Below, one piece after another: positions 29,079 through 39,263 of a stretch of DNA of 40,139 nt; position 1 is the stretch's first letter, and each line of letters opens with the position of its first letter. Made by a program: the position numbers and the translations under genes. Below the pieces are notes generated by a model, which saw only the letters and a program-made list of their open reading frames with translations, searched no databases and was not told the DNA's origin. Origin of the DNA: an uncultured Clostridium sp. (GTDB lineage: Bacteria; Bacillota; Clostridia; TANB77; CAG-508); contig CAMMLF010000002.1 of assembly GCA_946497585.1 (NCBI GenBank), positions 1 through 40,139 of the forward strand, in the 5' to 3' direction.

Positions 29079-29091
29079 TTCTCCTTTTTTA
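29066..29091 (+). terminator. Rho-independent terminator
   Basis: AGGAGAAC / GTTCTCCT with loop AATA, then TTTTTT; overlaps the stop codon. Confidence 0.85.
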
Positions 29092-29120
29092 TTGTCTTTA
29101 TTTCATTTTATTTTAAACAG

Positions 29121-29195: not shown

Positions 29196-29214
29196 AACTT
29201 TCTATAATTTCATT

Positions 29215-29242
29215 TTGTAACAAAAATGTAATAAAAATGTAA
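29215..29242 (+). repeat. Phased TGTAA repeats upstream of promoter A6
   Basis: TGTAAC, TGTAAT and TGTAAA at 10-bp spacing. Includes an exact copy of the 22-mer at 27272-27293. Confidence 0.7.
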
Positions 29243-29261
29243 AGAAAATTTAAAAAAAGTA

Positions 29262-29290
29262 TTGACAAACCCTTTTATAAATGTTATAAT
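29262..29290 (+). promoter_or_regulatory. Class-A promoter A6
   Basis: TTGACA 29262-29267, 17 bp, TGtTATAAT ending at 29290. Confidence 0.8.
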
Positions 29291-29313
29291 ATAAGTATAG
29301 AAAGGAGGAACAA

Positions 29314-29928
29314 ATGAAAAAGTTAGTAGTAATCAATTTGATTTTAATTTTAATCTATTGTATATTACCAAATGAGATACAAAAGAATATCAACGAAACG
29401 GTAGAAAATACAGTTAAAGAAATACAACAAGAAATAATATCAGAAGAACAACCAACAGAAGAACAAAAACAAGTAAGTAATTTGAATATTAGTTTTGATA
29501 TGAATTTGTTGACAAAAAGTAATATAACAATAGAAGAATTACAAAAAGGTTTTGCAAATACTAATATGCAAGGTTTAGAACAATATTTTATCAATGCAGA
29601 AAATGAAACTGGAATAAATGCAATATATCTTGCAGGACTTGCAACTCACGAAAGTGGTTGGAATACAAGTGATTTTGCAAGAGAAAGAAATAACTTGTTT
29701 GGTTGGCAAAGTTACGATAGTAACCTAAATGCGACTAAAAGATTTGCAAGTAAAGAAGAAAGTATAATGACAGTTGCAAGAGCATTGAAAAAAATGTACT
29801 TAAGCGAAAACGGTTGTTATTTTAACGGTTATACAATTTCTGGTATCTCAAAAAGATATGCAAGTGATAAACAACACAACCAAAAAGTTTTCAGAAATAT
29901 GCAAAAAATTGTTGACAAAATAAAATAA
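29314..29928 (+). CDS. GH73-type N-acetylglucosaminidase (peptidoglycan hydrolase) with an N-terminal signal/anchor helix
   Basis: GINAIYLAGLATHESGWNTSDFARERNNLFGW matches the glucosaminidase (GH73) catalytic region. N-terminus is MKKLVVINLILILIYCIL. AAAGGAGG SD. Confidence 0.8.
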   Translation: MKKLVVINLILILIYCILPNEIQKNINETVENTVKEIQQEIISEEQPTEEQKQVSNLNISFDMNLLTKSNITIEELQKGFANTNMQGLEQYFINAENETGINAIYLAGLATHESGWNTSDFARERNNLFGWQSYDSNLNATKRFASKEESIMTVARALKKMYLSENGCYFNGYTISGISKRYASDKQHNQKVFRNMQKIVDKIK

Positions 29929-29940
29929 ATATGTTATAAT
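29912..29940 (+). promoter_or_regulatory. Class-A promoter A7, embedded in the 3' end of the GH73 gene
   Basis: TTGACA 29912-29917, 17 bp, TATAAT 29935-29940. Confidence 0.75.
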
Positions 29941-29975
29941 ATAATTGAAATTAAAAAAGAAAGGATTTGATAGTT

Positions 29976-30218
29976 ATGAGTAGAAAAGAAAAAAGAGAAA
30001 TGGAGAAAACAAGAAAGGAAAGAGAACCAAAAGGAACTTTTCAAAAGTTCGTAAAATTAGTAAAATTAGTTTTATTTATTACAATGTTAGTATTTACATT
30101 TTTAGTAAGTGATAAAATTGCAAATTTTATAATCAATTTAGGAATTGAAAGACTAACAAGAATAGTAAATATGATACTAATTACAGTTGTAACAGGAATT
30201 TACTTTTATAAAAAATAG
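29976..30218 (+). CDS. Small two-helix membrane protein (80 aa; holin-like by size and topology)
   Basis: ATG 29976 with a GAAAGGA SD. A basic N-terminus is followed by LVLFITMLVFTFLV and IVNMILITVVTGIYF. Confidence 0.55.
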   Translation: MSRKEKREMEKTRKEREPKGTFQKFVKLVKLVLFITMLVFTFLVSDKIANFIINLGIERLTRIVNMILITVVTGIYFYKK

Positions 30219-30240
30219 GCGAAAGCCTATTTTTTTATTT
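30215..30240 (+). terminator. Rho-independent terminator
   Basis: ATAGGC-GAAA-GCCTAT followed by TTTTTTT; an A-run upstream makes bidirectional function possible. Confidence 0.8.
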
Positions 30241-30253
30241 TTGTTAGTGTAAA

Positions 30254-30323
30254 GTTATTATGTAAACTTGGCACGCGCGGGCGCCGAACCGAACAAATGT
30301 TTGCGCTTGGTTTACATAATAAC
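30254..30323 (+). repeat. Intergenic element copy 5
   Basis: 14-bp perfect IR: GTTATTATGTAAAC (30254-30267) / GTTTACATAATAAC (30310-30323). It flanks GGCACGCGCGGGCGCC and CGAACAAATGTTTG (30290-30303). Confidence 0.9.
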
Positions 30324-30357
30324 TTACAAATAAATTTAAAAAATTTTGAATATTTAC

Positions 30358-30386
30358 TTGACTTTTGTTTATAATAATGTTATAAT
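30358..30386 (+). promoter_or_regulatory. Class-A promoter A8
   Basis: TTGACT 30358-30363, 17 bp, TATAAT 30381-30386. Confidence 0.75.
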
Positions 30387-30415
30387 AAGAATGTAAAGAG
30401 AAAGGGGAGATAAAA

Positions 30416-30490
30416 ATGTATTTAACAAATAAAGATATAAAAGAAATTGAAGAATTTTTTAAAAAAGACTTGACAAATAAAAATAAATAA
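30416..30490 (+). CDS. Possible 24-aa micro-ORF (MYLTNKDIKEIEEFFKKDLTNKNK)
   Basis: Has its own promoter and an AAAGGGGAG SD 6 nt upstream of the ATG. The next promoter's -35 lies inside its 3' end. May be a gene remnant. Confidence 0.3.
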   Translation: MYLTNKDIKEIEEFFKKDLTNKNK

Positions 30491-30498
30491 TATATAAT
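30470..30498 (+). promoter_or_regulatory. Class-A promoter A9
   Basis: TTGACA 30470-30475, 17 bp, TATAAT 30493-30498. Confidence 0.75.
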
Positions 30499-30527
30499 AT
30501 AGTTACAGAAAGGGAAAGGTGATAATT

Positions 30528-31001
30528 ATGAAAAGAATTTTTATTGATATGGACGGAACAATAGCAAAGTTTAATGTACCAAATGCTTTAAGAAGATTTG
30601 CAACAGAAAAAGGATTTTTTAGAAGACTTGGAGCATATAAAGGAATAGAACATATAAACGAATTAGCAAAAAATAAAGAACAAATTTATATTTTATCAGC
30701 AAGTCCAAATATGTATGCAGATTTAGACAAAAAAAATTGGTTAAGAAGATATTTACCAAATTTACAAGAAAGTCAAATAATAATTTGTAGAAATGGAGAA
30801 AATAAAGCAAAAGTAATTGAAAGAAAATTTAATACAAAAATTACAAAAGATTTTTTCTTGCTAGATGATTATACAAAAAATTTAACAGATTGGGAAAATG
30901 CAGGTGGTACAGGAATAAAAAGAATTACAACAGTTTCAGACAATTCAACAGGAAAATGGAAAGGTTTAATCTTAAAACAATTAGAAGAATTGTATATATA
31001 A
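30528..31001 (+). CDS. HAD-superfamily 5'(3')-deoxyribonucleotidase-like phosphatase
   Basis: Motif I FIDMDGTIA (DxDxT), ILSAS, and FLLDDY (motif IV). The size fits NT5C/T5-Dmp-like enzymes. ATG 30528 with a GGGAAAGG SD. Confidence 0.7.
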   Translation: MKRIFIDMDGTIAKFNVPNALRRFATEKGFFRRLGAYKGIEHINELAKNKEQIYILSASPNMYADLDKKNWLRRYLPNLQESQIIICRNGENKAKVIERKFNTKITKDFFLLDDYTKNLTDWENAGGTGIKRITTVSDNSTGKWKGLILKQLEELYI

Positions 31002-31019
31002 TACAGTTCTTTTTCTTTA
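30987..31019 (+). terminator. Probable terminator (A/T-rich stem)
   Basis: GAATTGTAT / ATACAGTTC with one G-U pair, then TTTTTCTTT; overlaps the stop codon. Confidence 0.55.
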
Positions 31020-31069
31020 TGTAAACCGATAATTATGTAAACTGCGCGTGCGTGGTTGGTTAACATAAT
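31017..31069 (+). repeat. Intergenic element copy 6
   Basis: TTATGTAAAC twice (31017-31026 and 31033-31042), then GCGCGTGCGTGG, then the variant GTTAACATAAT (31059-31069). Confidence 0.85.
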
Positions 31070-31116
31070 CTGTTGCAATAAAATAAAAATTTTTTTTTAA
31101 AAAAATGTATATTTTA

Positions 31117-31146
31117 CTTGACAAATACATATAATAGTAGTATAAT
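31117..31146 (+). promoter_or_regulatory. Class-A promoter A10
   Basis: TTGACA 31117-31122, 18 bp, TATAAT 31141-31146. Confidence 0.75.
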
Positions 31147-31174
31147 AAGTATATAAAGAAAGGGAGGAATTAAA

Positions 31175-31483
31175 ATGGTTTTAAAAACAATAAAAATGAT
31201 AATTAAAATGGAAAATATAGAAAAAGGTTTTAAATTTAAAATGATAAGTTTAGGAATTTTAGAACAAATTGTAAATAGTTATAAAACAATATTAAAATTA
31301 CCTTTTTACTTGATAGGTTTACCATTTTGTTTTATTGGTTGGTTATCTGAACAAATCGCCGACTTATGCAGTTTAGTAATGGGAGTAATTCACGAGATAC
31401 CATATATAAAATTATGTAAAAAGGAAGATAAGGAAAGACTAATAAAAGCAATTAAGGAAAGAAATACTTATAAAGTTTCATAG
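31175..31483 (+). CDS. Small membrane protein (102 aa)
   Basis: GGGAGG SD; hydrophobic core LPFYLIGLPFCFIGWL. Confidence 0.6.
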   Translation: MVLKTIKMIIKMENIEKGFKFKMISLGILEQIVNSYKTILKLPFYLIGLPFCFIGWLSEQIADLCSLVMGVIHEIPYIKLCKKEDKERLIKAIKERNTYKVS

Positions 31484-31500
31484 AAGAAAGGGTGTTGAAA

Positions 31501-31656
31501 ATGTTGACAATTATTTTATCAATTATTGTTTATCGTTCTAATTTAAAAGAATTAGGAAAAGAACAATGTGGGAGTTATTTTGATTATTTTATGGGTTGGT
31601 TATGGGTTATGGTTTTTGAAATTGGTATGATTTTATTGTTTATTTTAGAAGGATAA
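31501..31656 (+). CDS. Small two-helix membrane protein (51 aa; below the ORF-track cutoff)
   Basis: ATG 31501 follows GAAAGGGTG. Translation: MLTIILSIIVYRSNLKELGKEQCGSYFDYFMGWLWVMVFEIGMILLFILEG. Confidence 0.5.
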   Translation: MLTIILSIIVYRSNLKELGKEQCGSYFDYFMGWLWVMVFEIGMILLFILEG

Positions 31657-31683
31657 AAAAATTAAAAAATTTTTAAAAAAGTA

Positions 31684-31712
31684 TTGACAAATAAGAATAA
31701 ATAGTGTATAAT
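31684..31712 (+). promoter_or_regulatory. Class-A promoter A11
   Basis: TTGACA 31684-31689, 17 bp, TATAAT 31707-31712. Confidence 0.8.
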
Positions 31713-31746
31713 AAGTACATAATAAAGAAGAAGGGAATTGATAGAA

Positions 31747-32448
31747 ATGAAAATTGATTTAAGAAAAAAATATTTTATGGTTTTAGATGTTGAAACAACA
31801 AATAATCAAATAGGAGTTAAAAATGCACCAAACGATGGTTTGGTATATGATTTAGGTTTTGGAATTTATGATAAACAAGGCAACGAATATCTTGCAGAAA
31901 GTTTAGTAATAAAGGAAATTTTCTACGATAAAGAACTTATGAATACGGCATATTATAGAAGAAAATTACCAAAATATTATGAAGAAATAAAACAAGGTAA
32001 AAGAAAAGTTGTAACATTATTACAAGCAAGAAAAATGATAAAACAAGCCGTTGAACAATTTAAGGTTGAAGAAGTTTATGCTTACAATGCAAATTTTGAT
32101 TATACAACATTAAACAATACAACAAGACTTATAACAAGTTCTTATGTTCGTTGGTTTTTACCTTATGGTACAAAGGTTTGTGATATATGGCATATTGCTT
32201 GTCAAGTATTAGGAACACAAAAAACTTTTCAATGGGAAAATGTTAGAAATGAAAACGGTAATTTAATAACAAACGCCGAAAGAATGTTTTCTTATATGTT
32301 ACAAGAAGAATTTTCAGAAGAACATACAGGACTTGAAGATACTAGAATTGAGGCACAAATACTTGTTCGTTGTTTTAAATCTCATAAGAAAATAAACAAA
32401 AATATAAATCGTAGTTGTTGGAGAATACCACAAAAGGTTGTTGCTTAA
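31747..32448 (+). CDS. DEDDh (DnaQ-like) 3'-5' exonuclease
   Basis: Exo I MVLDVETT, Exo II YAYNANFDYTTL, Exo III HTGLEDTRIEAQI (H-x4-D). ATG 31747 with an AGAAGGGA SD. Confidence 0.75.
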   Translation: MKIDLRKKYFMVLDVETTNNQIGVKNAPNDGLVYDLGFGIYDKQGNEYLAESLVIKEIFYDKELMNTAYYRRKLPKYYEEIKQGKRKVVTLLQARKMIKQAVEQFKVEEVYAYNANFDYTTLNNTTRLITSSYVRWFLPYGTKVCDIWHIACQVLGTQKTFQWENVRNENGNLITNAERMFSYMLQEEFSEEHTGLEDTRIEAQILVRCFKSHKKINKNINRSCWRIPQKVVA

Positions 32449-32464
32449 CAACCTTTTAATTTTT
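32432..32464 (+). terminator. Rho-independent terminator
   Basis: 11-bp stem AAAAGGTTGTT / AACAACCTTTT with loop GCTT, then AATTTTT; overlaps the stop codon. Confidence 0.85.
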
Positions 32465-32545
32465 ACGTAAACCGAACAAATGTTTGGCAAGTGCGTGCCC
32501 GCAATCGAACATTTGTTTGTGTGCGGGCGAACAAGTTTACATAAT
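32463..32545 (+). repeat. Intergenic element copy 7
   Basis: Variant TTACGTAAAC (32463-32472). CGAACAAATGTTTG (32473-32486). GCCCGCA / TGCGGGC stem around CGAACATTTGTTTG (32506-32519). GTTTACATAAT (32535-32545). Confidence 0.85.
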
Positions 32546-32582
32546 ATGTTGCAAATAAATTTAAAAAATTTGAATAAATCTA

Positions 32583-32611
32583 TTGACTTTTGCAAATAAT
32601 AATAGTATAAT
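32583..32611 (+). promoter_or_regulatory. Class-A promoter A12
   Basis: TTGACT 32583-32588, 17 bp, TATAAT 32606-32611. Confidence 0.75.
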
Positions 32612-32639
32612 ATAAGTAAAGAAAGGGAAGTGATAGAAA

Positions 32640-33191
32640 ATGAAAACAAAAAGATATTTTAAATTGATATTAAAACCTTATAGGGTAATTTTAAAACATT
32701 TTGATAAAGATATTCGTATTTCAATAGGTAAAACTTTTTGTTGTTTTCCACAATTGGAAGAAAAAGAAATAGAAATACCAATTTTTGAAAATAAACTAGG
32801 AAGAAAAGCATTTTATAACAAAATGAATAGAAAACTAAAAGAATATAATATAAACGGCGAATTTAGTAGTGAGATTTTAAGTTTTTTACACGAATTAGGT
32901 CATATTTATACTTATAAGAGAATAAACGAAATAAAATATAATATAGGTACAATGATTATACAAGGTATTCAAGCGAAATTATGCAGTCCAAAACTTTTAG
33001 ATTTCTTTTATAATTGGTATTTTAATTTAAAACTAGAAAAACTTGCAGATAAATGGGCAATGAATTTTATAAAAGAAAATCAAGAACTTGTAGAAAATTG
33101 GCAAATAATGTTACAAGAAAATTATAATAAAGTAATACCAAAATTCGTTGAACATATGAAAGTCAAATACAAACAAGATTTACTTGCATAG
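32640..33191 (+). CDS. Putative zinc metallopeptidase (HExxH)
   Basis: LSFLHELGHIYTY contains HELGH; no other motif recognised. GAAAGGGAAG SD. Confidence 0.55.
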   Translation: MKTKRYFKLILKPYRVILKHFDKDIRISIGKTFCCFPQLEEKEIEIPIFENKLGRKAFYNKMNRKLKEYNINGEFSSEILSFLHELGHIYTYKRINEIKYNIGTMIIQGIQAKLCSPKLLDFFYNWYFNLKLEKLADKWAMNFIKENQELVENWQIMLQENYNKVIPKFVEHMKVKYKQDLLA

Positions 33192-33204
33192 TAAATCTTT
33201 TTTA
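33175..33204 (+). terminator. Rho-independent terminator
   Basis: AAGATTTAC / GTAAATCTT with a 7-nt loop, then TTTT; overlaps the stop codon. Confidence 0.7.
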
Positions 33205-33216
33205 ATAAGTTAAAAT

Positions 33217-33254
33217 CGAACAAATGTTTTTGTGCGTGCGCCAGTTTACATAAT
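33217..33254 (+). repeat. Intergenic element copy 8 (right half only)
   Basis: CGAACAAATGTTTT (33217-33230), GTGCGTGCGCC, GTTTACATAAT (33244-33254). Confidence 0.8.
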
Positions 33255-33301
33255 CACTTACGATAATTTAAAAAATTTTTTAAAAATTTTTGTATAATCT
33301 A

Positions 33302-33330
33302 TTGACAAATGGATATAATAATAGTATAAT
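33302..33330 (+). promoter_or_regulatory. Class-A promoter A13 (orphan: SD-like GAAAGGGAA but no start codon before the next promoter)
   Basis: TTGACA 33302-33307, 17 bp, TATAAT 33325-33330. Confidence 0.7.
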
Positions 33331-33390
33331 AAAGATACAGAAAGGGAACAGACAAAAACAAAAAAAATAAAAAATAATTTTAAAAAACTA

Positions 33391-33419
33391 TTGACAAAAC
33401 TCTAAAACTATGTTATAAT
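33391..33419 (+). promoter_or_regulatory. Class-A promoter A14
   Basis: TTGACA 33391-33396, 17 bp, TGtTATAAT ending at 33419. Confidence 0.8.
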
Positions 33420-33452
33420 AACTTTAGAGTTAAGGAAAGGAAGGAATTGAAA

Positions 33453-33641
33453 ATGGATAAAAAAGAAATGATTAACAAATTAAATAAAATAATGAACGAA
33501 GTTGAGGAGTTACAATTAGAATTGTGTACAATGTTAGTAAAAGATAGTGAAAATCAAGAATTGAATTTTGCAGATAATACACTTGAAAATGCTTTCAATA
33601 ATTTAGTAGACACAGAATACCACTTGAAAAAAAGTTTATAA
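33453..33641 (+). CDS. Small acidic helical protein (62 aa)
   Basis: ATG 33453 with an AAGGAAGGA SD. Confidence 0.55.
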   Translation: MDKKEMINKLNKIMNEVEELQLELCTMLVKDSENQELNFADNTLENAFNNLVDTEYHLKKSL

Positions 33642-33658
33642 AACTTTAAAAAAAACTA

Positions 33659-33687
33659 TTGACAAACAAAAGAAAAAATGATATAAT
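33659..33687 (+). promoter_or_regulatory. Class-A promoter A15
   Basis: TTGACA 33659-33664, 17 bp, TATAAT 33682-33687. It is followed by a leader of about 90 nt with a GTAGG...CCTAC hairpin. Confidence 0.8.
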
Positions 33688-33780
33688 ATAAGTACAGTAA
33701 GGGTAGGGTAAAAAGTTCACTGGTAACCTACGGAAGGAACTCATAAGAAAAATAAATTTAAGGAAGGTTTGGTGATTAGT

Positions 33781-34775: not shown

Positions 34776-34899
34776 CAGCAGCTGGACCTAGAACAGCTGG
34801 ATAGCTGGCAGCTGGACCGTACAGCTAGGATTTGTCAGCAGCTGGGTTGTCAGCAGCTGGAACAGCTGGGTTTCAAAAAGCTGGAATTTGCAAACAGCT
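34776..34899 (+). repeat. CAGCTGG iteron-like array
   Basis: Eight AGCTGG and two AGCTA(G/C) copies within about 125 bp, including the tandem 15-mers TGTCAGCAGCTGGGT (34833-34847) and TGTCAGCAGCTGGAA (34848-34862). Lies directly upstream of promoter B1. Confidence 0.85.
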
Positions 34900-34916
34900 A
34901 CAAATTATGCTATAAT
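34888..34916 (+). promoter_or_regulatory. Class-B promoter B1
   Basis: TTGCAA 34888-34893, 17 bp, TATAAT 34911-34916, then the conserved TATTATAGAAA box. Confidence 0.65.
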
Positions 34917-34952
34917 TATTATAGAAATAAAAAAAGAAGGGAGAAATAAAAG

Positions 34953-35294
34953 ATGACAGATTATGCTATATCAATTTGTAATAGAGTAATAATTTGGAAT
35001 GATGATAATCACGAGAGTGAGGTATATTTTAATGGTGAAAAAGCTGGATATTTGGGAGACGAATTAAATTGTATAACAACAGTAGCTGAACGAGCTGCGG
35101 CAGCTGGGCCAAAGCCAACTATTTGTAAGAGAGTTTATATATTTGACTTGTGTGAAGTGATGGACGATGAAGAAGAAAATAAAGAAGATTTTGAAAAATT
35201 AGTAGAGTTCTTTCAAACAACTACAAGATTCACACCAGAACAAGAACAAGCCATATTTAATGAAGACTACAATAAATTATTAGAACTTATATAA
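34953..35294 (+). CDS. Acidic hypothetical protein (113 aa)
   Basis: GAAGGGAG SD; D/E-rich C-terminal half. The coding sequence itself holds three more AGCTG motifs (about 35085-35107). Confidence 0.6.
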   Translation: MTDYAISICNRVIIWNDDNHESEVYFNGEKAGYLGDELNCITTVAERAAAAGPKPTICKRVYIFDLCEVMDDEEENKEDFEKLVEFFQTTTRFTPEQEQAIFNEDYNKLLELI

Positions 35295-35302
35295 TTCAAA
35301 AT

Positions 35303-35331
35303 TTGATTTTTACTAAAAATTATAGTATAAT
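35303..35331 (+). promoter_or_regulatory. Class-B promoter B2 (tRNA operon 1)
   Basis: TTGATT 35303-35308, 17 bp, TATAAT 35326-35331, then ATAATTATAGAAAAAA. Confidence 0.7.
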
Positions 35332-35339
35332 ATAATTAT

Positions 35340-35579
35340 AGAAAAAATAAAAAAATATTTTTTCTAGGAGTCCAAGAATCATTCCTAACAAAGTCCTAAC
35401 TGGTTGGACCGGTAAATTGGAATGTCAGACCTAACTGAAAGAGGAGTTGCTATACTTTACATAGCTGATTAACAACCATAAGTTGTAGTCAAGGCAGTAA
35501 CTTTAATTTATCGCGATACCCTTGACGGATAATGGGACTTCATTCTCGAGTCGTAGCTACTTTGAAGTTCCTTTTCTAT
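35340..35579 (+). ncRNA. Structured non-coding leader of about 220-240 nt ahead of the first tRNA
   Basis: No ORF, and higher GC than the surroundings. Stems GTCAAGG (35488-35494) / CCTTGAC (35519-35525), GGGACTTCA / TGAAGTTCC (one G-U pair), and GCTAT-ACTTTAC-ATAGC. D-arm-like GTCCTAACTGGTTGGAC. Confidence 0.4.
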
Positions 35580-35656
35580 GCACGAGTAGGCAAACTGGCA
35601 AAGCCGCTGGTCTTAGAAACCAGTGTATGAAAGTTCGATTCTTTCCTTGTGCACCA
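35580..35656 (+). tRNA. tRNA with anticodon UAG (Leu codon CUA) but a short 5-nt variable loop
   Basis: Acceptor GCACGAG / CTTGTGC. Anticodon arm CTGGT-CTTAGAA-ACCAG. T arm GAAAG-TTCGATT-CTTTC. A73 and CCA are encoded. D arm has a 3-bp stem. Confidence 0.7.
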
Positions 35657-35697
35657 AACTCTTCACGCATTGAGTATAAATAACTGCGCAATGCCCC

Positions 35698-35733
35698 TGG
35701 CAGAGGGTGGTGAAGTGTCACCGAATATCTGCC
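35698..35733 (+). pseudogene. tRNA-Tyr-like 5'-half relic
   Basis: TGGCAGAGGGTGGTGAAGTGTCACCGAATATCTGCC aligns by eye with the D and anticodon arms of the Tyr tRNA (GGCAGAGGTGGTGAGCTGCACCAGACTGTAAATCTGGC). No T arm is present. Confidence 0.4.
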
Positions 35734-35737
35734 ATAC

Positions 35738-35824
35738 GGATGGATGGCGGAACTGGTAGACGCACAGGACTTAAAATCCTGTATCAGAAATGGTGTGAGG
35801 GTTCGATTCCCTCTCTATCCACCA
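35738..35824 (+). tRNA. tRNA-Leu(UAA)
   Basis: Acceptor GGATGGA / TCTATCC. Anticodon arm CAGGA-CTTAAAA-TCCTG. 15-nt variable arm. T arm GAGGG-TTCGATT-CCCTC. ACCA 3' end. Confidence 0.9.
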
Positions 35825-35942
35825 ATTTAGTTTGCATACCTAATCATATAGATTTTCATATACCATTTTGGGTATATTGAACGCACGGCGCCGTCTGTAA
35901 CAGTTCGATTATCGTCCTGACTACGGCAGCCGGTTTATATAT

Positions 35943-36028
35943 GGGTCAGCGGCAGAGGTGGTGAGCTGCACCAGACTGTAAATCTGGCGTCATTTGACTA
36001 GGAGGTTCGAGTCCTTACTGGCCCACCA
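35943..36028 (+). tRNA. tRNA-Tyr(GUA)
   Basis: Acceptor GGGTCAG / CTGGCCC. Anticodon arm CCAGA-CTGTAAA-TCTGG. Long variable arm. TTCGAGT T loop. ACCA 3' end. Confidence 0.85.
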
Positions 36029-36076
36029 ACAACTCCCTTCATAAGGTAGCTAGAGCCATAAGTCTAGCACTTATAT

Positions 36077-36151
36077 TCCCGGATAGCCTAACTGGTAGGG
36101 CACAGGACTTTGACTCCTGGAGTGTTAGTTCGAGTCTAGCTCCGGGAACCA
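36077..36151 (+). tRNA. tRNA-Gln(UUG)
   Basis: Acceptor TCCCGGA / TCCGGGA (U1-A72). Anticodon arm CAGGA-CTTTGAC-TCCTG. T arm GTTAG-TTCGAGT-CTAGC. ACCA 3' end. Confidence 0.9.
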
Positions 36152-36191
36152 GTCTCATTAGAGACATTCCCTTTCTCAAAGTTATACATTG

Positions 36192-36231
36192 GTCAGCTAC
36201 TTGCAATAGAGCTTGTAGCTGGCTTTTGTTT
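36192..36231 (+). terminator. Terminator of tRNA operon 1
   Basis: CAGCTAC (36194-36200) / GTAGCTG (36215-36221), then GCTTTTGTTT. A small GTCTC-ATTA-GAGAC hairpin lies at 36152-36165. Confidence 0.7.
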
Positions 36232-36234
36232 GCT

Positions 36235-36267
36235 AATAAACCTTTAGGTTTACATAATATGTTTACC
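36235..36267 (+). repeat. Intergenic element copy 10 (degenerate)
   Basis: AAACCTTTAGGTTTACATAATATGTTTAC, with GTTTACATAAT at 36248-36258. Followed by AGCTGG/CAGCTG motifs and GTGCGTGC. Confidence 0.7.
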
Positions 36268-36372
36268 GCTGGAGTAGCTGGATGGCAGCTACACCGCAGC
36301 TGTGCGTGCAATTATACTTCGCCGCTAACTAAAAGTCAAGTCTCAGCAGCTACAACTTATACAAGTTAAAAC

Positions 36373-36401
36373 TTGAATTTCATTTTAAATTCTGATATAA
36401 T
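36373..36401 (+). promoter_or_regulatory. Class-B promoter B3 (tandem with B4)
   Basis: TTGAAT 36373-36378, 17 bp, TGaTATAAT ending at 36401, then ATTATTATAGAAAAAA. Confidence 0.65.
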
Positions 36402-36463
36402 ATTATTATAGAAAAAAGAAAAAAGAAAATCAATTTCAACCCGGGAAATAGCAAAATGAAAAT

Positions 36464-36492
36464 TTGATTTTATTTTAAAATTATAGTATAAT
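36464..36492 (+). promoter_or_regulatory. Class-B promoter B4 (tRNA operon 2)
   Basis: TTGATT 36464-36469, 17 bp, TATAAT 36487-36492, then TATTATAGAAAGAAAAAA. Confidence 0.7.
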
Positions 36493-36529
36493 TATTATAG
36501 AAAGAAAAAAGAAAAACAAAAACAAATAT

Positions 36530-36604
36530 GGCGCTATGGGCAAGTGGTCAAGCCACCACCCTTTCACGGTGGAGTCCCCAGTTCGATTCTGGGTAGCGCT
36601 ACCA
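36530..36604 (+). tRNA. tRNA-Glu(UUC)
   Basis: Acceptor GGCGCTA / TAGCGCT (G1-U72). Anticodon arm CCACC-CTTTCAC-GGTGG. T arm CCCAG-TTCGATT-CTGGG. ACCA 3' end. Confidence 0.85.
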
Positions 36605-36611
36605 ATTATAT

Positions 36612-36697
36612 GCCGTCTGTCCGGGTTGGTGAGGGAGCTGCCTTGAAAGCAGTTGGCCTGAAAGGGCTTGCAGGTTCGAATCCTGTGGACGGCGCCA
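36612..36697 (+). tRNA. tRNA-Ser(UGA)
   Basis: Acceptor GCCGTCT / GGACGGC. Anticodon loop CTTGAAA. Long variable arm. TTCGAAT T loop. G73 plus CCA. Confidence 0.85.
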
Positions 36698-36701
36698 AAA
36701 T

Positions 36702-36776
36702 GGCTCGGTAGTTCAACGGTTAGAATACAAGCCTGTCACGCTTGAGACTGGAGTTCAACTCTCCATCGAGTCGCCA
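36702..36776 (+). tRNA. tRNA-Asp(GUC)
   Basis: Acceptor GGCTCGG / TCGAGTC (two G-U pairs). Anticodon arm CAAGC-CTGTCAC-GCTTG. T arm TGGAG-TTCAACT-CTCCA. G73 plus CCA. Confidence 0.85.
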
Positions 36777-36781
36777 CATAT

Positions 36782-36857
36782 GGGGCCATAGCTTAGCTGG
36801 TAAAGCGCCTGCCTTGCAAGCAGGAGAGCAGGAGTTCGATTCTCCTTGGCTCCACCA
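36782..36857 (+). tRNA. tRNA-Ala(UGC)
   Basis: Acceptor GGGGCCA / TGGCTCC with G3-U70. Anticodon arm CCTGC-CTTGCAA-GCAGG. ACCA 3' end. Confidence 0.9.
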
Positions 36858-36912
36858 CTAAAGGGTTTTGTAGTTTGCATCCTCACCTATAAAAACAAAC
36901 TACTACTTATAT

Positions 36913-36988
36913 GCGGCATTAGCTCAGATGGTAGAGCACTTGACTTTTAATCAAGGGGTCGAAGGTTCGAATCCTTCATGCCGCACCA
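36913..36988 (+). tRNA. tRNA-Lys(UUU)
   Basis: Acceptor GCGGCAT / ATGCCGC. D arm GCTC-AGATGGTA-GAGC. Anticodon arm CTTGA-CTTTTAA-TCAAG. T arm GAAGG-TTCGAAT-CCTTC. ACCA 3' end. Confidence 0.92.
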
Positions 36989-37079
36989 GCGCCCTCTTTA
37001 GCTAGACAGAGGTTAAAACAATCTAGCACCCAGTACTGGTTTTAGTTTTGGCTCTTGGGTTCGACTCCCACGGTGCGGT
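36980..37079 (+). ncRNA. tRNA-like element of about 100 nt without a canonical anticodon arm
   Basis: T-arm-like TGGG-TTCGACT-CCCA (37056-37070). The 3' strand GGTGCGG (37072-37078) can pair with CCGCACC (36981-36987), which overlaps the 3' end of tRNA-Lys. Internal hairpin GCTAGA (37001-37006) / TCTAGC (37022-37027). No CCA. Confidence 0.3.
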
Positions 37080-37088
37080 GGGGATTAC

Positions 37089-37130
37089 TGCGCCGAAGCT
37101 TAACGGTAAGCCTCCTACATTAGAGTAGGG
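37089..37130 (+). pseudogene. tRNA 5'-half-like relic
   Basis: TGCGCCG-AA-GCTT-AACGGT-AAGC looks like an acceptor strand plus D arm. It is followed by CCTAC-ATTAGA-GTAGG (6-nt loop). No T arm before promoter B5. Confidence 0.3.
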
Positions 37131-37147
37131 AAGAGAAGAGTCAAAAC

Positions 37148-37176
37148 TTGATTTGAAATTAAAATTGTGATATAAT
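37148..37176 (+). promoter_or_regulatory. Class-B promoter B5 (tRNA operon 3)
   Basis: TTGATT 37148-37153, 17 bp, TGaTATAAT ending at 37176, then TATTATAGTAAAGAAAAA. Confidence 0.7.
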
Positions 37177-37199
37177 TATTATAGTAAAGAAAAATAAAT

Positions 37200-37275
37200 A
37201 GTCCCTTAGCTCAGCTGGGAGAGCGTCGCCCTTACAAGGCGAAGGTCGTTGGTTCGAGACCAACAGGGACTACCA
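37200..37275 (+). tRNA. tRNA-Val(UAC)
   Basis: Acceptor AGTCCCT / AGGGACT. D arm GCTC-AGCTGGGA-GAGC. Anticodon arm TCGCC-CTTACAA-GGCGA. T arm GTTGG-TTCGAGA-CCAAC. ACCA 3' end. Confidence 0.9.
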
Positions 37276-37280
37276 TATAT

Positions 37281-37356
37281 TGCGATTGTAGAGAACCGGA
37301 ATCTCGTCAGTCTCATAAGCTGAAGTTAAGTGGTTCGACTCCACTCATCGCAACCA
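37281..37356 (+). tRNA. tRNA with CAU anticodon (Met, or Ile2 if C34 is lysidinylated); irregular acceptor stem
   Basis: Anticodon arm TCAGT-CTCATAA-GCTGA. D arm GAGA-ACCGGAA-TCTC. T arm AGTGG-TTCGACT-CCACT. Acceptor TGCGAT(T)G / CATCGCA needs a bulged U or a U-C mismatch at 7-66. Confidence 0.7.
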
Positions 37357-37363
37357 ATTATAT

Positions 37364-37439
37364 TGGCACATAGCTCAGTAGGTAGAGCAACTGGCTGTTA
37401 ACCAGTGGGTCGGGAGTTCGAGGCTCTCTGTGCCAGCCA
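37364..37439 (+). tRNA. tRNA-Asn(GUU)
   Basis: Acceptor TGGCACA / TGTGCCA (U1-A72). Anticodon arm ACTGG-CTGTTAA-CCAGT. G73 plus CCA. Confidence 0.9.
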
Positions 37440-37442
37440 TTC

Positions 37443-37518
37443 GCCCATATAGCTCAACTGGCAGAGCACCGCTCTTGTAAAGCGGAGGTTACCTGTTCGA
37501 TTCAGGTTGTGGGCTCCA
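37443..37518 (+). tRNA. tRNA-Thr(UGU)
   Basis: Acceptor GCCCATA / TGTGGGC. Anticodon arm CCGCT-CTTGTAA-AGCGG. T arm ACCTG-TTCGATT-CAGGT. TCCA 3' end. Confidence 0.9.
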
Positions 37519-37524
37519 CAAAAT

Positions 37525-37553
37525 TTGACTAAAAACTAAAATTATGATATAAT
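37525..37553 (+). promoter_or_regulatory. Class-B promoter B6
   Basis: TTGACT 37525-37530, 17 bp, TGaTATAAT ending at 37553, then AATTATAGAAAATAAA. Confidence 0.7.
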
Positions 37554-37559
37554 AATTAT

Positions 37560-37650
37560 AGAAAATAAATAAAAAATTAGCCGATATGTTCAAAAATAAT
37601 AGATAAAGTAGGCGAAACCCTCGTAAAAATACTACTTTCCCTTCTTTTTA
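37560..37650 (+). ncRNA. Candidate short transcript (about 90 nt) with no ORF
   Basis: Lies between promoters B6 and B7. Hairpin AAAGTAG (37605-37611) / CTACTTT (37632-37638), then CCCTTCTTTTTA. The only ORF is a 6-codon ATG frame. Confidence 0.3.
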
Positions 37651-37670
37651 TAAGAATTAACAACAAAAAA

Positions 37671-37700
37671 TTAGACAAAAACTTAAAATTATGATATAAT
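37671..37700 (+). promoter_or_regulatory. Class-B promoter B7
   Basis: TTAGAC 37671-37676, 18 bp, TGaTATAAT ending at 37700, then TATTATAGAAAGAAAG. A leader of about 120 nt has CGGTTA-AAAAA-TAACCG and TCACG...CGTGA hairpins. Confidence 0.6.
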
Positions 37701-37826
37701 TATTATAGAAAGAAAGAAAAAACAACCTAATTTCGATATAAACGGTTAAAAAATAACCGAATATATAAAAATAAAATAGGGTCACGACCTTAACGTGAGA
37801 GCCGAAAGGCAGAAAGGTGGTCAATT

Positions 37827-38162
37827 ATGGCAGATAAAATAACAAAAGCAATGAATGATGGAGCTGCAAGAAGCAATGCAGTAGAAGTTTTAGGATTAGG
37901 AGCATATGCAAAAGTATCAAATACTGAATATGCATTAACTGTAAAAGATTTAGAAGGAAACGACAAAGTCGTAGTAGTAAAATTAACTGTTCCAAAAAAT
38001 CAAACTTCAATAGATGAAATGGTATCTGCTTATGAAGCTGAAAGAGCAGAAGTAGAAGCTAGAAAAGCTGAAAGAGAAGCTGAAAGAGCTGCTAAGAAAG
38101 CTGCTAAAGCTAACAAAGCAAACAAAAAAGCTAACAAAGAAGAAGAAGTAGTAGAATTCTAG
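37827..38162 (+). CDS. Paralog family member 3 (111 aa, divergent)
   Basis: VVVVKLTVPKN plus an A/E/K/R-rich C-terminal helix (EARKAEREAERAAKKAAKANK), the same architecture as members 1 and 2. AAAGGTGG SD. Confidence 0.6.
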   Translation: MADKITKAMNDGAARSNAVEVLGLGAYAKVSNTEYALTVKDLEGNDKVVVVKLTVPKNQTSIDEMVSAYEAERAEVEARKAEREAERAAKKAAKANKANKKANKEEEVVEF

Positions 38163-38166
38163 TAAC

Positions 38167-38194
38167 AGCAGGGCATAGACCCTGCTTTATTTTT
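38167..38194 (+). terminator. Rho-independent terminator
   Basis: AGCAGGG-CATAGA-CCCTGCT, then TTATTTTT. Confidence 0.85.
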
Positions 38195-38213
38195 AGAAAA
38201 GGAGGTACTATTT

Positions 38214-38570
38214 ATGACAGAGCGCGAAAAGTCTAATTTGCTAAGAGAAGCAGAACTTAAAAAAATTAAGAAGTATTATGAAGACCAAGGATATATATGT
38301 GAAAGAATATTATCTCAAAATTCTCCCTCTTCTATAATTCTATTTACAGAAGACCAAGAGAAAAATGAAAGATATATTGAAATAAAATTTATTGTCAAAA
38401 AGCCTGAATATGAACCTGATGACGATATAGAAGAATTTAAAGCTGAAATTGAGAAGAGGGCGGTTAAACAAGTAAAAGCTGATATAAATAAACTTCCAAA
38501 GAAAGAACGACTTGCCGCCGAACAACAAGCTAACAAGAAAGTAAAAGAAATAATAGAAAGCTATAAATAG
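38214..38570 (+). CDS. Hypothetical charged protein (118 aa)
   Basis: AAGGAGG SD 8 nt upstream of the ATG. Confidence 0.65.
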   Translation: MTEREKSNLLREAELKKIKKYYEDQGYICERILSQNSPSSIILFTEDQEKNERYIEIKFIVKKPEYEPDDDIEEFKAEIEKRAVKQVKADINKLPKKERLAAEQQANKKVKEIIESYK

Positions 38571-38585
38571 CTTTCTTTCTTTTTG
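38556..38585 (+). terminator. Rho-independent terminator
   Basis: GAAAGCT-ATAAAT-AGCTTTC, then TTTCTTTTT; overlaps the stop codon. Confidence 0.7.
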
Positions 38586-38669
38586 CCCTTTAATAAGTAA
38601 AACGCTTTCTAGCGCAAATTGTGCGGGCCATTATCCCACAAATTCCACTAAAAGTCAAGCGCAAACATA

Positions 38670-38707
38670 AATAAAAAAAAGAAGAGAGTAGCCGTGTCTA
38701 CTCTCTT
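38670..38707 (-). terminator. Rho-independent terminator of the leftward small transcription unit
   Basis: AAGAGAGTAG (38682-38691) / CTACTCTCTT (38698-38707). On the minus-strand RNA it is followed by a run of 8 U. Confidence 0.8.
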
Positions 38708-39009
38708 GAATTTCATTCTAACCGTAGCTTGTATGCCACTACTTTAAGGGGTCAAACAGCTGCAGCTGTCACCTTTATACTCTCCCAGTTATATTACTTT
38801 TCTATCGCCCATAACGTCAAGATGAAATGGACTTCACATTCACACTAGGTTCTGGTATCCCATTACCAAGTGTCCCTCTGTGCGTTTCGGTTTCAGCTTA
38901 CCTAGTTAAAGCCTACAATAGTGCAGTGACCTTGAAACCGTCGTCCCTAGTCTCAGCGCTATCGCTAACTTTGTTCGCATAAGCTGAATTGACATATATG
39001 TAACACAGC
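38708..39009 (-). ncRNA. Non-coding, comparatively GC-rich stretch of about 300 nt between the small ORF and its terminator (candidate structured RNA)
   Basis: No ORF on either strand. On the minus-strand RNA there is an 8-bp stem CGGTTTCA ... TGAAACCG. Contains CAGCTGCAGCTG. Confidence 0.35.
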
Positions 39010-39195
39010 TTAAAAAGCTGGTTCAAACACTCCAACAGCCTCTACGTGCCCATCACTGTCATAAGTAGCTGTAATATATGGTTTTTTGTCTAGTCCTAAC
39101 TCTGCGGCTGAACTAGCTCCAAAACTATCTAAAATTCTGTTTTGTACCTCAGTTGTAAGTTCGCTGAAAAATATGTTTCTTGTTTCCATACTCAT
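39010..39195 (-). CDS. Small hypothetical protein (about 59-61 aa)
   Basis: GAAGGGAGAG SD. Start is ATG 39195 or 39189; the track start is an upstream TTG. Driven by promoter B8. Confidence 0.55.
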   Translation of the reverse strand: MSMETRNIFFSELTTEVQNRILDSFGASSAAELGLDKKPYITATYDSDGHVEAVGVFEPAF

Positions 39196-39234
39196 CTCTC
39201 CCTTCAACTTTTATTTTATTTTTTCTATAATATT

Positions 39235-39263
39235 ATTATAGCAAAAATCGCGCGAAAAATCAA
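39235..39263 (-). promoter_or_regulatory. Class-B promoter B8 (leftward)
   Basis: On the minus strand: TTGATT (39263-39258), 17 bp, TATAAT (39240-39235), then AATATTATAGAAAAAA. Confidence 0.65.

What the first reader, a model, noticed from the sequence alone, without database searches (positions are those of the whole stretch)
34888..39263. Second promoter family with a conserved box downstream of the -10, restricted to the RNA island
Eight promoters (B1-B8, one of them leftward) share AAAATTAT(G/A)N-TATAAT, followed within 0-3 nt by ATTATAGAAA and an A-rich run. Their -35 elements are weaker and more variable (TTGATT, TTGAAT, TTGCAA, TTAGAC) than in class A. They drive all three tRNA operons, four small proteins and at least one ORF-less transcript. 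The conserved sequence at about +1 to +15 is not needed for sigma70-type recognition. It could be a binding site for a phage factor that sets a separate temporal class, a conserved initially transcribed sequence, or a 5' RNA processing or stability tag common to these transcripts.
Basis: seen in the sequence. Interest (0 to 1): 0.65.

Follow-up and report, generated by a model that had tools for sequence, protein, structure and literature searches.

The report
Phage promoter family with AT-only start region
The repeated ATTATAGAAA box is most likely the easily melted stretch and start point of ordinary host-type promoters in a chicken-gut phage, not a separate control site, so it is real but largely ordinary.

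Summary
TATAAT-N(1 or 3)-ATTATAG occurs at 9 sites in the window, against 0.01 expected from shuffles.

Three details are wrong:
- A ninth site lies in the class A region at 28565. More sites lie beyond the window and in relatives, so the family is not restricted to the RNA island.
- Counting from the -10, the box covers about -5 to +2 (or -3 to +4), not +1 to +15.
- Class A promoters carry the same box with one base changed (AGTAyAG), at the same 1 or 3 nt spacings.

Across 72 promoters of this phage lineage, position 6-7 after the -10 is Y-R in 64 and T-A in 51. The box spacing is only ever 1 or 3, which keeps T-A in that register. The same pattern appears in 276 consensus promoters from 70 unrelated viral contigs and in Lactococcus phage 949.

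Best reading: these are sigma-A promoter cassettes with an AT-only discriminator, a T(-1)A(+1)G(+2) start and a purine-rich initially transcribed region. They are kept similar by duplication and by selection.

Two families do exist: -35 type and box type are associated (p = 5e-6), with some hybrids. Nothing supports a phage factor site or an RNA tag. No start site was mapped. Interest is low.

The parts
34888..34940 (+). B1: -35 TTGCAA 34888-34893, TGc + -10 TATAAT 34911-34916, box ATTATAG 34918-34924 (N=1), A-rich run. Drives the 113-aa ORF 34953-35294.
   Evidence: The orthologous promoter is kept in L122 and L123 although the upstream flank is unalignable.
35303..35365 (+). B2: -35 TTGATT 35303-35308, -10 35326-35331, box 35335-35341 (N=3). 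The leader AGAAAAAAT-A6-ATTTTTTCT forms a 5' hairpin. Drives an ORF-less RNA and then tRNA operon 1 (Leu, Leu, Tyr, Gln; 35580-36151).
   Evidence: The hairpin is kept through changed sequence in L122 and L123. RNA contigs cover 35389-35521.
36373..36433 (+). B3: -35 TTGAAT 36373-36378, -10 36396-36401, box 36405-36411 (N=3). It is ORF-less and sits in tandem 91 bp upstream of B4. It is the only class B site with a full promoter on the opposite strand (TTGATT-17-TATAAT, - 36433..36405).
36464..36529 (+). B4: -35 TTGATT 36464-36469, -10 36487-36492, box 36494-36500 (N=1), then a 29-nt A-rich leader. Drives tRNA operon 2 (Glu, Ser, Asp, Ala, Lys; 36530-36988).
   Evidence: In relative L126 the same operon lies in the right arm behind a class B promoter.
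37148..37199 (+). B5: -35 TTGATT 37148-37153, TGa + -10 37171-37176, box ATTATAG 37178-37184 followed by TAAAG. Drives tRNA operon 3 (Val, Met, Asn, Thr; 37200-37518).
   Evidence: The box drifts A<->T in the L122 orthologue.
37525..37660 (+). B6: -35 TTGACT 37525-37530, TGa + -10 37548-37553, box 37555-37561 (N=1). Drives an ORF-less stretch with an invariant 30-nt core at 37608-37637.
37672..37826 (+). B7: -35 TAGACA 37672-37677, TGa + -10 37695-37700, box 37702-37708 (N=1), then a conserved 118-nt leader. Drives ORFs 37827-38162 and 38214-38570.
39208..39263 (-). B8 (leftward): -35 TTGATT 39263-39258, TGc + -10 39240-39235, box 39231-39225 (N=3). Drives the small ORF 39207-39010. Downstream lies an abundant non-coding RNA at about 39008-38693 that ends at the terminator 38707-38682.
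   Evidence: The box is lost (AAATATATAAAT) in the L122 orthologue although the promoter is kept.
28542..28600 (+). Ninth site, a hybrid: class A -35 TTGACA 28542-28547, -10 28565-28570, class B box ATTATAG 28572-28578 (N=1). It is ORF-less and sits in tandem upstream of the promoter at 28639-28667.
27321..33700 (+). Class A array: 14 promoters with TTGACA(AA)-17-TATAAT-(A|ATA)-AGTAyAG-AAAGG. This is the same downstream box with G in place of T, at the same 1 or 3 nt spacings.

Best explanation
Class B sites are promoters for the host's housekeeping (sigma-A, sigma-70-type) RNA polymerase.

**Proposed anatomy**
- An A-tract, then a moderate -35 (TTGAyT), then a 17-bp spacer. The spacer often ends in TG (extended -10).
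- A perfect TATAAT.
- The 'box' is not a separate site. ATTA is an AT-only discriminator that is cheap to melt.
- T-A-G is the start: pyrimidine at -1, A at +1, G at +2. It falls 7 nt after the -10 when N=1. When N=3 the start is at position 7 or 9.
- The A/G-rich run is an unstructured, purine-rich initially transcribed region. It would favour promoter escape and leave tRNA and mRNA leaders open.

**Why the sites look alike**
- They are copies of one cassette that moved with its genes.
- Selection keeps the stretch AT-only and keeps T-A in register.
- The 2-nt (AT) indels that give N=1 or N=3 preserve that register.

**Shown**
- The sequence anatomy.
- The register rule.
- Conservation in relatives.
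- The same pattern in unrelated phages.
- Downstream RNAs are expressed.

**Inferred**
- The start point itself.
- Use of the host polymerase.
- The effects on melting and escape.
For: 1. All nine sites have a -35-like hexamer, a 17-bp spacer and an exact TATAAT.
2. In the window's promoters Y6R7 holds in 21 of 22 and T6A7 in 17 of 22. In 72 lineage promoters Y6R7 holds in 64 and T6A7 in 51. Background frequencies are 22% and 10% (p about 1e-33).
3. The spacing from TATAAT to ATTATA is 1 (12 times) or 3 (17 times) and never 0, 2, 4 or 5. With the class A variant included the counts are 1 (14) and 3 (25).
4. Class A has the same box with one base different.
5. In 276 consensus promoters from 70 unrelated IMG/VR loci, with the ascertainment sites removed, positions 1-5 are W, position 6 is Y in 85%, position 7 is R in 92% and positions 9-10 are A. 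Lactococcus phage 949 has 23 promoters of the form TTGACA-17-TATAAT + W-run + ATAG.
6. The exact TATAAT-N-ATTATAG recurs 12 times in L007 and several times in L103, L107 and L023. L007 and L107 share no detectable protein similarity with the window in the held segments; L103 gave three HSPs.
7. In orthologues the promoter and box are kept where the flanks are unalignable (B1). Where the box drifts (B5, B6 and B8 of L122) the changes are A<->T only.
8. These features match the published determinants of start-site choice: modal start 7 bp after the -10, Y at -1, R at +1, G at +2 (PMC5730371). Published work also reports effects of the initially transcribed region on yield (PMC5961368; PMC12464699).
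9. The B2 leader hairpin starts exactly at the AG of the box in three phages.
Against: - No transcription start was mapped. The RNA data are assembler contigs without 5' ends.
- Exact identity of ATTATAG in 9 of 9 sites exceeds what the generic W/Y/R preference requires. It has to be put down to shared descent.
- The association of box type with -35 type could reflect a real regulatory class.
- The IMG/VR control set was picked by one motif hit per locus, so it is not fully unbiased.
- The host is uncultured and only guessed.
- The published rules come from E. coli polymerase.
Confidence: 0.62

Rival explanations
1. The box, or the inverted repeat TATAAT-N-ATTATA as a whole, is an operator for a phage-encoded or host DNA-binding protein. 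This protein would switch class B promoters (RNA island plus right arm) on or off as a temporal class separate from class A.
For: - ATTATA is the reverse complement of TATAAT, so each site is a short dyad across -12 to +1.
- Box type correlates with -35 type and with genome region.
- The exact heptamer is kept in B1, B2 and B7 of relatives.
- The phage has an early region full of small proteins of unknown function.
Against: - The symmetry stops at the hexamers. G follows ATTATA in 9 of 9 sites, but the mirror C precedes TATAAT in only 2 of 9.
- The half-site spacing varies between 1 and 3.
- Class A has the same box with one base changed.
- Hybrids make up 7 of 46 boxed promoters.
- Orthologues tolerate A<->T drift and even loss of the box, as in B8 of L122.
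- Few copies stand apart from a -10: 7 of the 18 strand-counts of ATTATAG in 26700-39300.
- The same sequence is used by phages that share no detectable proteins with this one.
- No regulator was found.
Confidence: 0.12
2. The box has no function of its own. The sites are recent copies of one promoter cassette, and ATTATAGAAA has simply not had time to diverge.
For: - Similarity runs through the whole cassette from -45 to +20.
- tRNA operon 2 and its promoter lie at different genome places in this phage and in L126, so cassettes move with genes.
- B3-B4 and 28565-28662 are tandem pairs.
Against: - In B1 the flanks are unalignable between relatives with 80-90% protein identity, yet the box is kept.
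- Drift is restricted to A<->T.
- The T-A register and the odd-only spacing hold across 72 promoters.
- The same pattern is seen in unrelated phages.
Confidence: 0.14
3. The sites are two-way promoters. The second hexamer would serve as a -10 on the other strand, so polymerase can bind in either direction. This would give short antisense or divergent RNAs, or competition between the two orientations that tunes output.
For: - A perfect TATAAT is present on both strands at every site.
- B3 has a full reverse promoter, TTGATT-17-TATAAT.
- Bidirectional promoters arising from -10 symmetry are known, with starts 7-25 bp apart (PMC10268837).
Against: - Eight of the nine sites lack any -35 (4 of 6 or better) or TG on the reverse strand.
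- The known common arrangement has overlapping hexamers and starts 18 bp apart, not adjacent hexamers.
- No gene lies in the reverse direction.
- The contigs carry no strand information.
Confidence: 0.07
4. The conserved sequence acts in the RNA as a shared 5' tag for processing, stability or a binding factor.
For: - All units begin with (AU)AGAAA followed by an A-rich run.
- The island makes very abundant stable RNAs.
- The B2 leader forms a conserved 5' hairpin.
Against: - With a normal distance from the -10 to the start, only 2-4 nt of the box would be in the RNA.
- The A-runs differ in sequence and length.
- The hairpin is specific to B2.
- The abundant RNA pieces start about 50 nt or more downstream (35389; about 39008), so the 5' leaders are removed.
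- Rfam gives nothing here except tRNAs.
Confidence: 0.05

Closest known systems
Housekeeping sigma-70 / sigma-A promoters with their start-site determinants (discriminator, Y-1 R+1, core recognition element G+2; Yu et al. 2017, PMC5730371)
   Same: - -35-like hexamer, 17-bp spacer and TATAAT.
- T-A at positions 6-7 after the -10, then G. This is the modal start with the preferred bases.
   Different: - The discriminator is strictly A/T and nearly identical between sites.
- The start was not mapped here.
- The rules were established for E. coli polymerase, not for this uncultured Bacillota host.
Phage T5 early promoters such as N25, whose transcribed region +3 to +20 (DSR/ITS) sets output (Kammerer et al. 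1986, as cited in PMC12464699 and PMC5961368). That T5 classes carry class-typical downstream sequences is from my own memory.
   Same: - Arrays of very strong host-polymerase promoters in a virulent phage.
- Similarity reaches past the -10 into a purine- or A-rich initially transcribed region.
- Promoter families differ outside the hexamers.
   Different: - The host phylum differs.
- Here the most conserved part lies before the start, not after it.
- No functional data exist.
Early promoter arrays of large Bacillota siphoviruses, for example Lactococcus phage 949 (NC_015263)
   Same: - Distant structural relatives: portal about 27% identical.
- 23 promoters of the form TTGACA-17-(TG)TATAAT in 50 kb, followed by an A/T run ending in ATAG and a purine-rich leader. 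Some stand before tRNA genes.
   Different: - In 949 the A/T run varies in sequence and in length (G at 9-13 nt).
- There is no fixed ATTATAG and no clear two-family split.
Bidirectional promoters caused by -10 symmetry (Warman et al. 2021, as summarised in PMC10268837)
   Same: A -10 hexamer is readable on both strands within one short AT-rich site.
   Different: - The known common form has overlapping hexamers with starts 18 bp apart. Here the hexamers are adjacent and separated by 1 or 3 nt.
- The reverse side has no -35 or TG, except at B3.
Gram-positive '-16 region' / extended -10 promoters (TRTGnTATAAT; Voskuil and Chambliss 1998, from my own knowledge)
   Same: TATGn or TGTGn stands before TATAAT in B1, B5, B6 and B7, alongside a weaker -35.
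   Different: - TG is present in only 6 of 9 sites.
- Across the lineage it is no more frequent than in class A: 17 of 34 against 17 of 38.

Membership tests
sigma-70 / sigma-A housekeeping promoter | -35-like hexamer (TTGACA) | tested here: met
   4-6 of 6 matches at all nine sites.
sigma-70 / sigma-A housekeeping promoter | -10 TATAAT at 17 +/- 1 bp from the -35 | tested here: met
   Exact TATAAT with a 17-bp spacer at 9 of 9 sites.
sigma-70 / sigma-A housekeeping promoter | Start about 7 bp after the -10 at a purine preceded by a pyrimidine | tested here: inconclusive
   The sequence fits: T6A7 at 9 of 9 sites, with G8 in the N=1 sites. No 5' ends could be read from the RNA contigs.
sigma-70 / sigma-A housekeeping promoter | Transcription by host holoenzyme | not testable with these tools
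   Downstream RNAs are present in gut transcriptomes, but the polymerase responsible is unknown. The phage also encodes a sigma-like protein at 25474-26751.
Extended -10 (TGn) promoter | TG at -15/-14 | tested here: inconclusive
   Present in 6 of 9 sites (absent in B2, B4 and 28565). Not enriched over class A across the lineage.
Palindromic operator of a dimeric regulator | Dyad symmetry beyond what the -10 itself supplies | tested here: not met
   G follows ATTATA in 9 of 9 sites. The mirror C precedes TATAAT in 2 of 9.
Palindromic operator of a dimeric regulator | Fixed half-site spacing | tested here: not met
   The spacing is 1 or 3 nt within one genome and changes between orthologues.
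Palindromic operator of a dimeric regulator | A cognate binding protein | not tested
   No regulator domain was found in the early ORFs. Most of them have no family match at all.
Bidirectional promoter by -10 symmetry | -10 hexamers on both strands | tested here: met
   TATAAT is present on both strands at every site.
Bidirectional promoter by -10 symmetry | Divergent starts on opposite strands (commonly 18 bp apart, with overlapping hexamers) | not testable with these tools
   The geometry predicts about 12-14 bp with hexamers that do not overlap. The contigs carry no strand or 5' end information.
Stable-RNA (rrn P1-type) promoter with GC-rich discriminator | GC-rich discriminator between the -10 and the start | tested here: not met
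   The discriminator is A/T only at 9 of 9 sites.
Conserved 5' RNA leader or tag | The conserved sequence lies within the transcript and is shared by the RNAs | tested here: inconclusive
   By position, only AG or AUAG of the box would be transcribed. The A-runs vary. There is no Rfam match. The start was not mapped.

The most novel reading that the evidence does not exclude
The two cassette types could be true regulatory classes read differently by a modified host polymerase. Class A has a consensus -35, a G-containing discriminator and serves the early arm. Class B has a weak -35, an AT-only inverted -10 and serves the RNA genes and the right arm. For example, an early phage protein that disables -35 recognition, or one that binds the TATAAT-N-ATTATA dyad, would shift transcription from class A to class B. 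The inverted -10 would then be the mark of a delayed class that includes the phage's tRNA and small-RNA genes.
Probability: 0.12. Interest if true: 0.5.

Novelty: new member of a known kind. Interest (0 to 1): 0.22.

Why it matters
- If the main reading holds, this is ordinary promoter anatomy in an uncultured phage. Its use is practical. It gives a rule for annotating transcription units in low-GC gut phages: TATAAT, then an A/T-only stretch with T-A at positions 6-7, then a purine-rich leader.
- It also shows that phage tRNA and small-RNA genes are served by the same cassette as many protein genes.
- The odd-only spacing is indirect, comparative support that the start-site rules measured in E. 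coli also constrain promoters of Bacillota phages.
- Only if the two cassette types turn out to be timed differently would the finding bear on how such phages order their gene expression.

Tried and rejected
- **Megablast of the island against GenBank phages:** no match.
- **blastn of one 55-nt promoter against the same collection:** no match, probably because of the low-complexity filter.
- **Exact-pattern scan of IMG/VR with TATAATNATTATAGAAA:** mostly single chance hits in AT-rich contigs. It was useful only after counting repeats per locus.
- **RNA-seq.** Two runs cover the region evenly, either as DNA or as full transcription, and say nothing. Four runs are patchy and show which RNAs are abundant, but as assembler contigs they give no promoter-proximal 5' ends. 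No raw-read runs were offered.
- **Rfam at a permissive threshold:** only tRNAs and chance hits.
- **PHROGs and Pfam on the early and island ORFs:** no regulator found.
- **Host promoters.** 74 kb of Erysipelotrichaceae contigs held too few consensus promoters to compare.
- **Late-gene upstream regions:** no obvious third motif by eye.
- **SPO1 first 50 kb:** only two sites under my strict filter, so it was not a usable control.
- **Kammerer et al. 1986:** could not be read.
- **Sigma-dependent pausing:** considered and dropped, because the -10-like repeat lies before the start and, as ATTATA, on the wrong strand.
- **Extended -10 as the class B hallmark:** considered and dropped, because TG is equally common in class A.
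- **The abundant RNA at 38693-39008:** checked for conservation. Only 38629-38790 aligns to a relative.

Full report
**Context**

The window comes from a low-GC (about 30%) tailed phage.
- A 3257-aa tape measure protein, the portal, the large terminase and a sigma-like protein lie on the minus strand at 1.5-26.8 kb.
- From 27.3 kb a plus-strand array of small genes follows, then 13 tRNA genes at 35580-37518.
- The same sequence occurs on 119-kb contigs from chicken-gut metagenomes.
- No GenBank phage is close. The portal is about 30% identical to those of large Enterococcus, Lactococcus 949-like and Bacillus phages.
- The nearest cellular homologues of its glucosaminidase are in Erysipelotrichaceae, and a fragment of the phage is binned with an uncultured Bacilli genome. 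A Bacillota host is therefore likely, but this is only inferred.

**Observation check**

- All eight sites are present. Each has a -35-like hexamer, a 17-bp spacer, an exact TATAAT, then 1 or 3 nt, then ATTATAG, then a run that is about 70% A against a background of 41%.
- The composite TATAAT-N(1-3)-ATTATAG gives 11 strand-counts (9 sites, two readable on both strands). In 300 dinucleotide-preserving shuffles of 26700-39300 the mean was 0.01.
- A ninth site at 28565 sits among the class A promoters and has a perfect TTGACA -35.
- The spacing is never 0 or 2.

**Position of the box**

Counting from the -10, ATTATAG occupies positions 2-8 (N=1) or 4-10 (N=3). With the usual 7-nt distance from the -10 to the start, this is about -5 to +2 or -3 to +4. 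It is not +1 to +15. Only the A-rich run is clearly transcribed.

**Class A has the same box**

The 14 class A promoters read TATAAT-(A or ATA)-AGTAyAG-AAAGG. This is the same heptamer with G in place of T, at the same two spacings.

**The register rule**

- In 22 promoters of the window, position 6-7 after the -10 is pyrimidine-purine in 21 and T-A in 17.
- I then pooled 72 promoters: the window, 5 kb beyond it (L119) and three relatives (L122/L126, L123, L110). Y6R7 holds in 64 and T6A7 in 51. Background frequencies are 22% and 10%.
- The distance from TATAAT to ATTATA is 1 (12 cases) or 3 (17 cases) and nothing else. With the class A variant included the counts are 14 and 25.
- Because the box is built of T-A steps, spacings of 1 and 3 both put T-A at positions 6-7, and a spacing of 2 would not.
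- This is what one expects if the selected feature is the start point. Published work on E. coli polymerase gives a modal start 7 bp after the -10, a purine at the start, a pyrimidine before it and a G just after it. Starts 2 bp further on are possible at a small cost (PMC5730371).
- In N=1 sites T6-A7-G8 meets all three preferences.

**Relatives**

- L123 and L122 encode proteins 90% and 80% identical to the B7 gene product. They keep promoters at the places of B1, B2, B5, B6, B7 and B8.
- At B1 the upstream flank cannot be aligned, yet the stretch from CAAATTATGCTATAAT to TATTATAGAAA is kept. This points to selection rather than recent copying.
- In L122 the box changes at B5 (ATATTATAAG), B6 (ATTATTAAG) and B8 (AAATATATAAAT). 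Every change is A to T or T to A. What is held constant is A/T-only composition up to the first G, not the exact word.

**Not restricted to the island**

- In the same phage, four more promoters of this type lie within 5 kb past the AT-rich end of the window, on the other strand.
- In the relative's right arm (L126) at least seven promoters read TATAAT-www-ATTATA(G/A). They stand before protein genes, including an RNA ligase, a phosphoesterase and a glycosyltransferase, and before further tRNA genes.
- The Glu-Ser-Asp-Ala-Lys tRNA operon is in the island here, behind B3 and B4. In that relative it lies in the right arm behind a class B promoter. The cassette therefore travels with its genes.

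**Generality**

- One IMG/VR pattern scan returned mostly chance hits. It also returned contigs in which the same composite is the repeated early promoter.
  - L007 has 12 copies of ATTATGnTATAAT-T-ATTATAGTAAGTTAAG.
  - L103, L107 and L023 have several each.
  - L007 and L107 share no detectable protein similarity with the window in the held segments.
- After removing the ascertainment sites, 276 promoters of the TTGACA-17-TATAAT type from 70 unrelated loci show A/T at positions 1-5, pyrimidine at position 6 (85%), purine at position 7 (92%) and A at positions 9-10. This control is imperfect because the loci were chosen by one motif hit each.
- Lactococcus phage 949 is an independent genome with a known host. 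It has 23 consensus promoters in 50 kb followed by an A/T run ending in ATAG and a purine-rich leader.

**Are there two families?**

Yes, as correlated feature sets. A non-consensus -35 goes with ATTATA (24 against 2), and TTGACA goes with AGTAyA (15 against 5). Fisher p = 4.7e-6. Three points weigh against the box defining a regulatory class:
- Seven of 46 boxed promoters are hybrids.
- L110 and L123 use the ATTATAG box behind strong -35 elements before ordinary early protein genes.
- TG before the -10 is equally common in both sets.

The association can be explained by descent of two cassette lineages. A functional difference is not excluded.

**Tests of the rivals**

- *Operator.* ATTATA is the reverse complement of TATAAT, so each site is a small dyad. 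The symmetry does not extend: G follows the box in 9 of 9 sites, while the mirror C is present in only 2 of 9. The half-site spacing varies. Seven of the 18 strand-counts of ATTATAG in 26700-39300 lie apart from a -10, against a shuffle mean of 3.9.
- *Two-way promoter.* Only B3 has a -35 on the reverse strand. The known symmetric promoters have overlapping hexamers and starts 18 bp apart (PMC10268837).
- *RNA tag.* Most of the box would not be in the RNA. The A-runs differ in sequence and length. The abundant RNA pieces begin about 50 nt or more downstream.
- *B2 leader.* This is one real RNA-level feature. AGAAAAAAU-A6-AUUUUUUCU forms a hairpin that starts at the AG of the box. It is kept through changed sequence in L122 and L123. 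This fits a start at that A, but it is specific to B2.

**Purine-rich run**

Published work reports that changing the transcribed +3 to +20 of T5 N25 lowers full-length RNA tenfold, and that purine content correlates with productive yield (PMC12464699; PMC5961368). By analogy the A-rich run may aid escape and keep the leaders unstructured. This is inference.

**What is not shown**

- No start site was mapped.
- The polymerase that uses these promoters is not shown.
- Timing of the two classes is untested.
- The available RNA data are assembler contigs. They show that the island's products are expressed and very abundant, but they carry no 5' ends or strand information.

**Verdict**

- The feature is real and far beyond chance. 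It is best read as the discriminator, start and initial transcribed region of ordinary sigma-A-type promoter cassettes.
- These cassettes are shared, with one base changed, by the other promoter family of the same phage, and with variations by many low-GC phages.
- It is a new example of a known kind, and interest is low.
- The most novel reading still open is that the two cassette types are timed differently by a phage factor. I put this at about 0.12.

Noticed in passing
window 38680-39010, minus strand: This is the most abundant phage RNA in four gut transcriptomes: a non-coding stretch at about 38693-39008 (depth 180 against 2-5 for the neighbouring ORFs). There is adapter read-through at 38994 and a minus-strand terminator at 38707-38682. 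It lies downstream of B8 and its 65-aa ORF. It has no Rfam match, and only 38629-38790 aligns to a relative.
   Followed up: partly
window 35389-35521: A second abundant RNA piece of about 133 nt lies between B2 and the first tRNA, with an adapter directly before 35389. It is ORF-less, is not called as a tRNA and has no Rfam match. Two sequence variants are present in one sample.
   Followed up: partly
window 37562-37660: The ORF-less product of B6 contains a 30-nt core, AAAGTAGGCGAAACCCTCGTAAAAATACTA (37608-37637). The core is identical in two relatives whose flanks differ, so this is a likely small RNA.
   Followed up: partly
window 27087-36257: GTTTACATAA occurs 16 times against 0.25 expected. 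The copies form inverted arms (TTATGTAAAC ... GTTTACATAA) around GC-rich cores in nearly every gap between early genes. Some cores contain CGAACAAATGTTYG, which resembles a Bacillota LexA box.
   Followed up: partly
window 34770-34880 and 36270-36350: There are clusters of short CAGCTGG / CAGCTAC repeats just upstream of B1 and in the gap before B3.
   Followed up: no
window 39300-40139: A very AT-rich (about 80%) low-complexity stretch with no convincing gene separates the island from a right arm that is transcribed the other way. It could be an origin or an arm boundary.
   Followed up: no
window 25474-26751, minus strand: A phage sigma-factor-like protein of 425 aa (phrog_5767) sits at the head of the structural gene block, behind a TTGACT-17-TATACT promoter. 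Its target promoters were not found.
   Followed up: partly
window 36396-36433: B3 is the only class B site with a complete promoter on the opposite strand (TTGATT-17-TATAAT). Another leftward TTGACT-17-TATAAT lies at 36339-36311.
   Followed up: no
window 28686-29078, 33769-34143, 37827-38162: Three small proteins look like paralogues. They share a '(D)IVVPK'-type core and a lysine/glutamate-rich tail. Two stand behind class A promoters and one behind B7. This was read by eye and not aligned.
   Followed up: no
L126 129-1463, 11270-12181, 14344-15036 (right arm of a relative): This arm encodes a DUF2828 + VWA protein (Ro/TROVE-like), an RNA ligase and a metallophosphatase, next to 11 further tRNA genes. 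This hints at an RNA-repair module. The weak Rfam YrlA hit at window 37384-37502 lies over tRNAs.
   Followed up: partly
window 36990-37140: An unassigned GC-rich stretch after tRNA-Lys has a T-arm-like GGTTCGACTCC. It could be a degenerate or unusual tRNA-like RNA.
   Followed up: no
window 1485-11258, minus strand: The tape measure protein is very long (3257 aa), which implies an unusually long tail.
   Followed up: no
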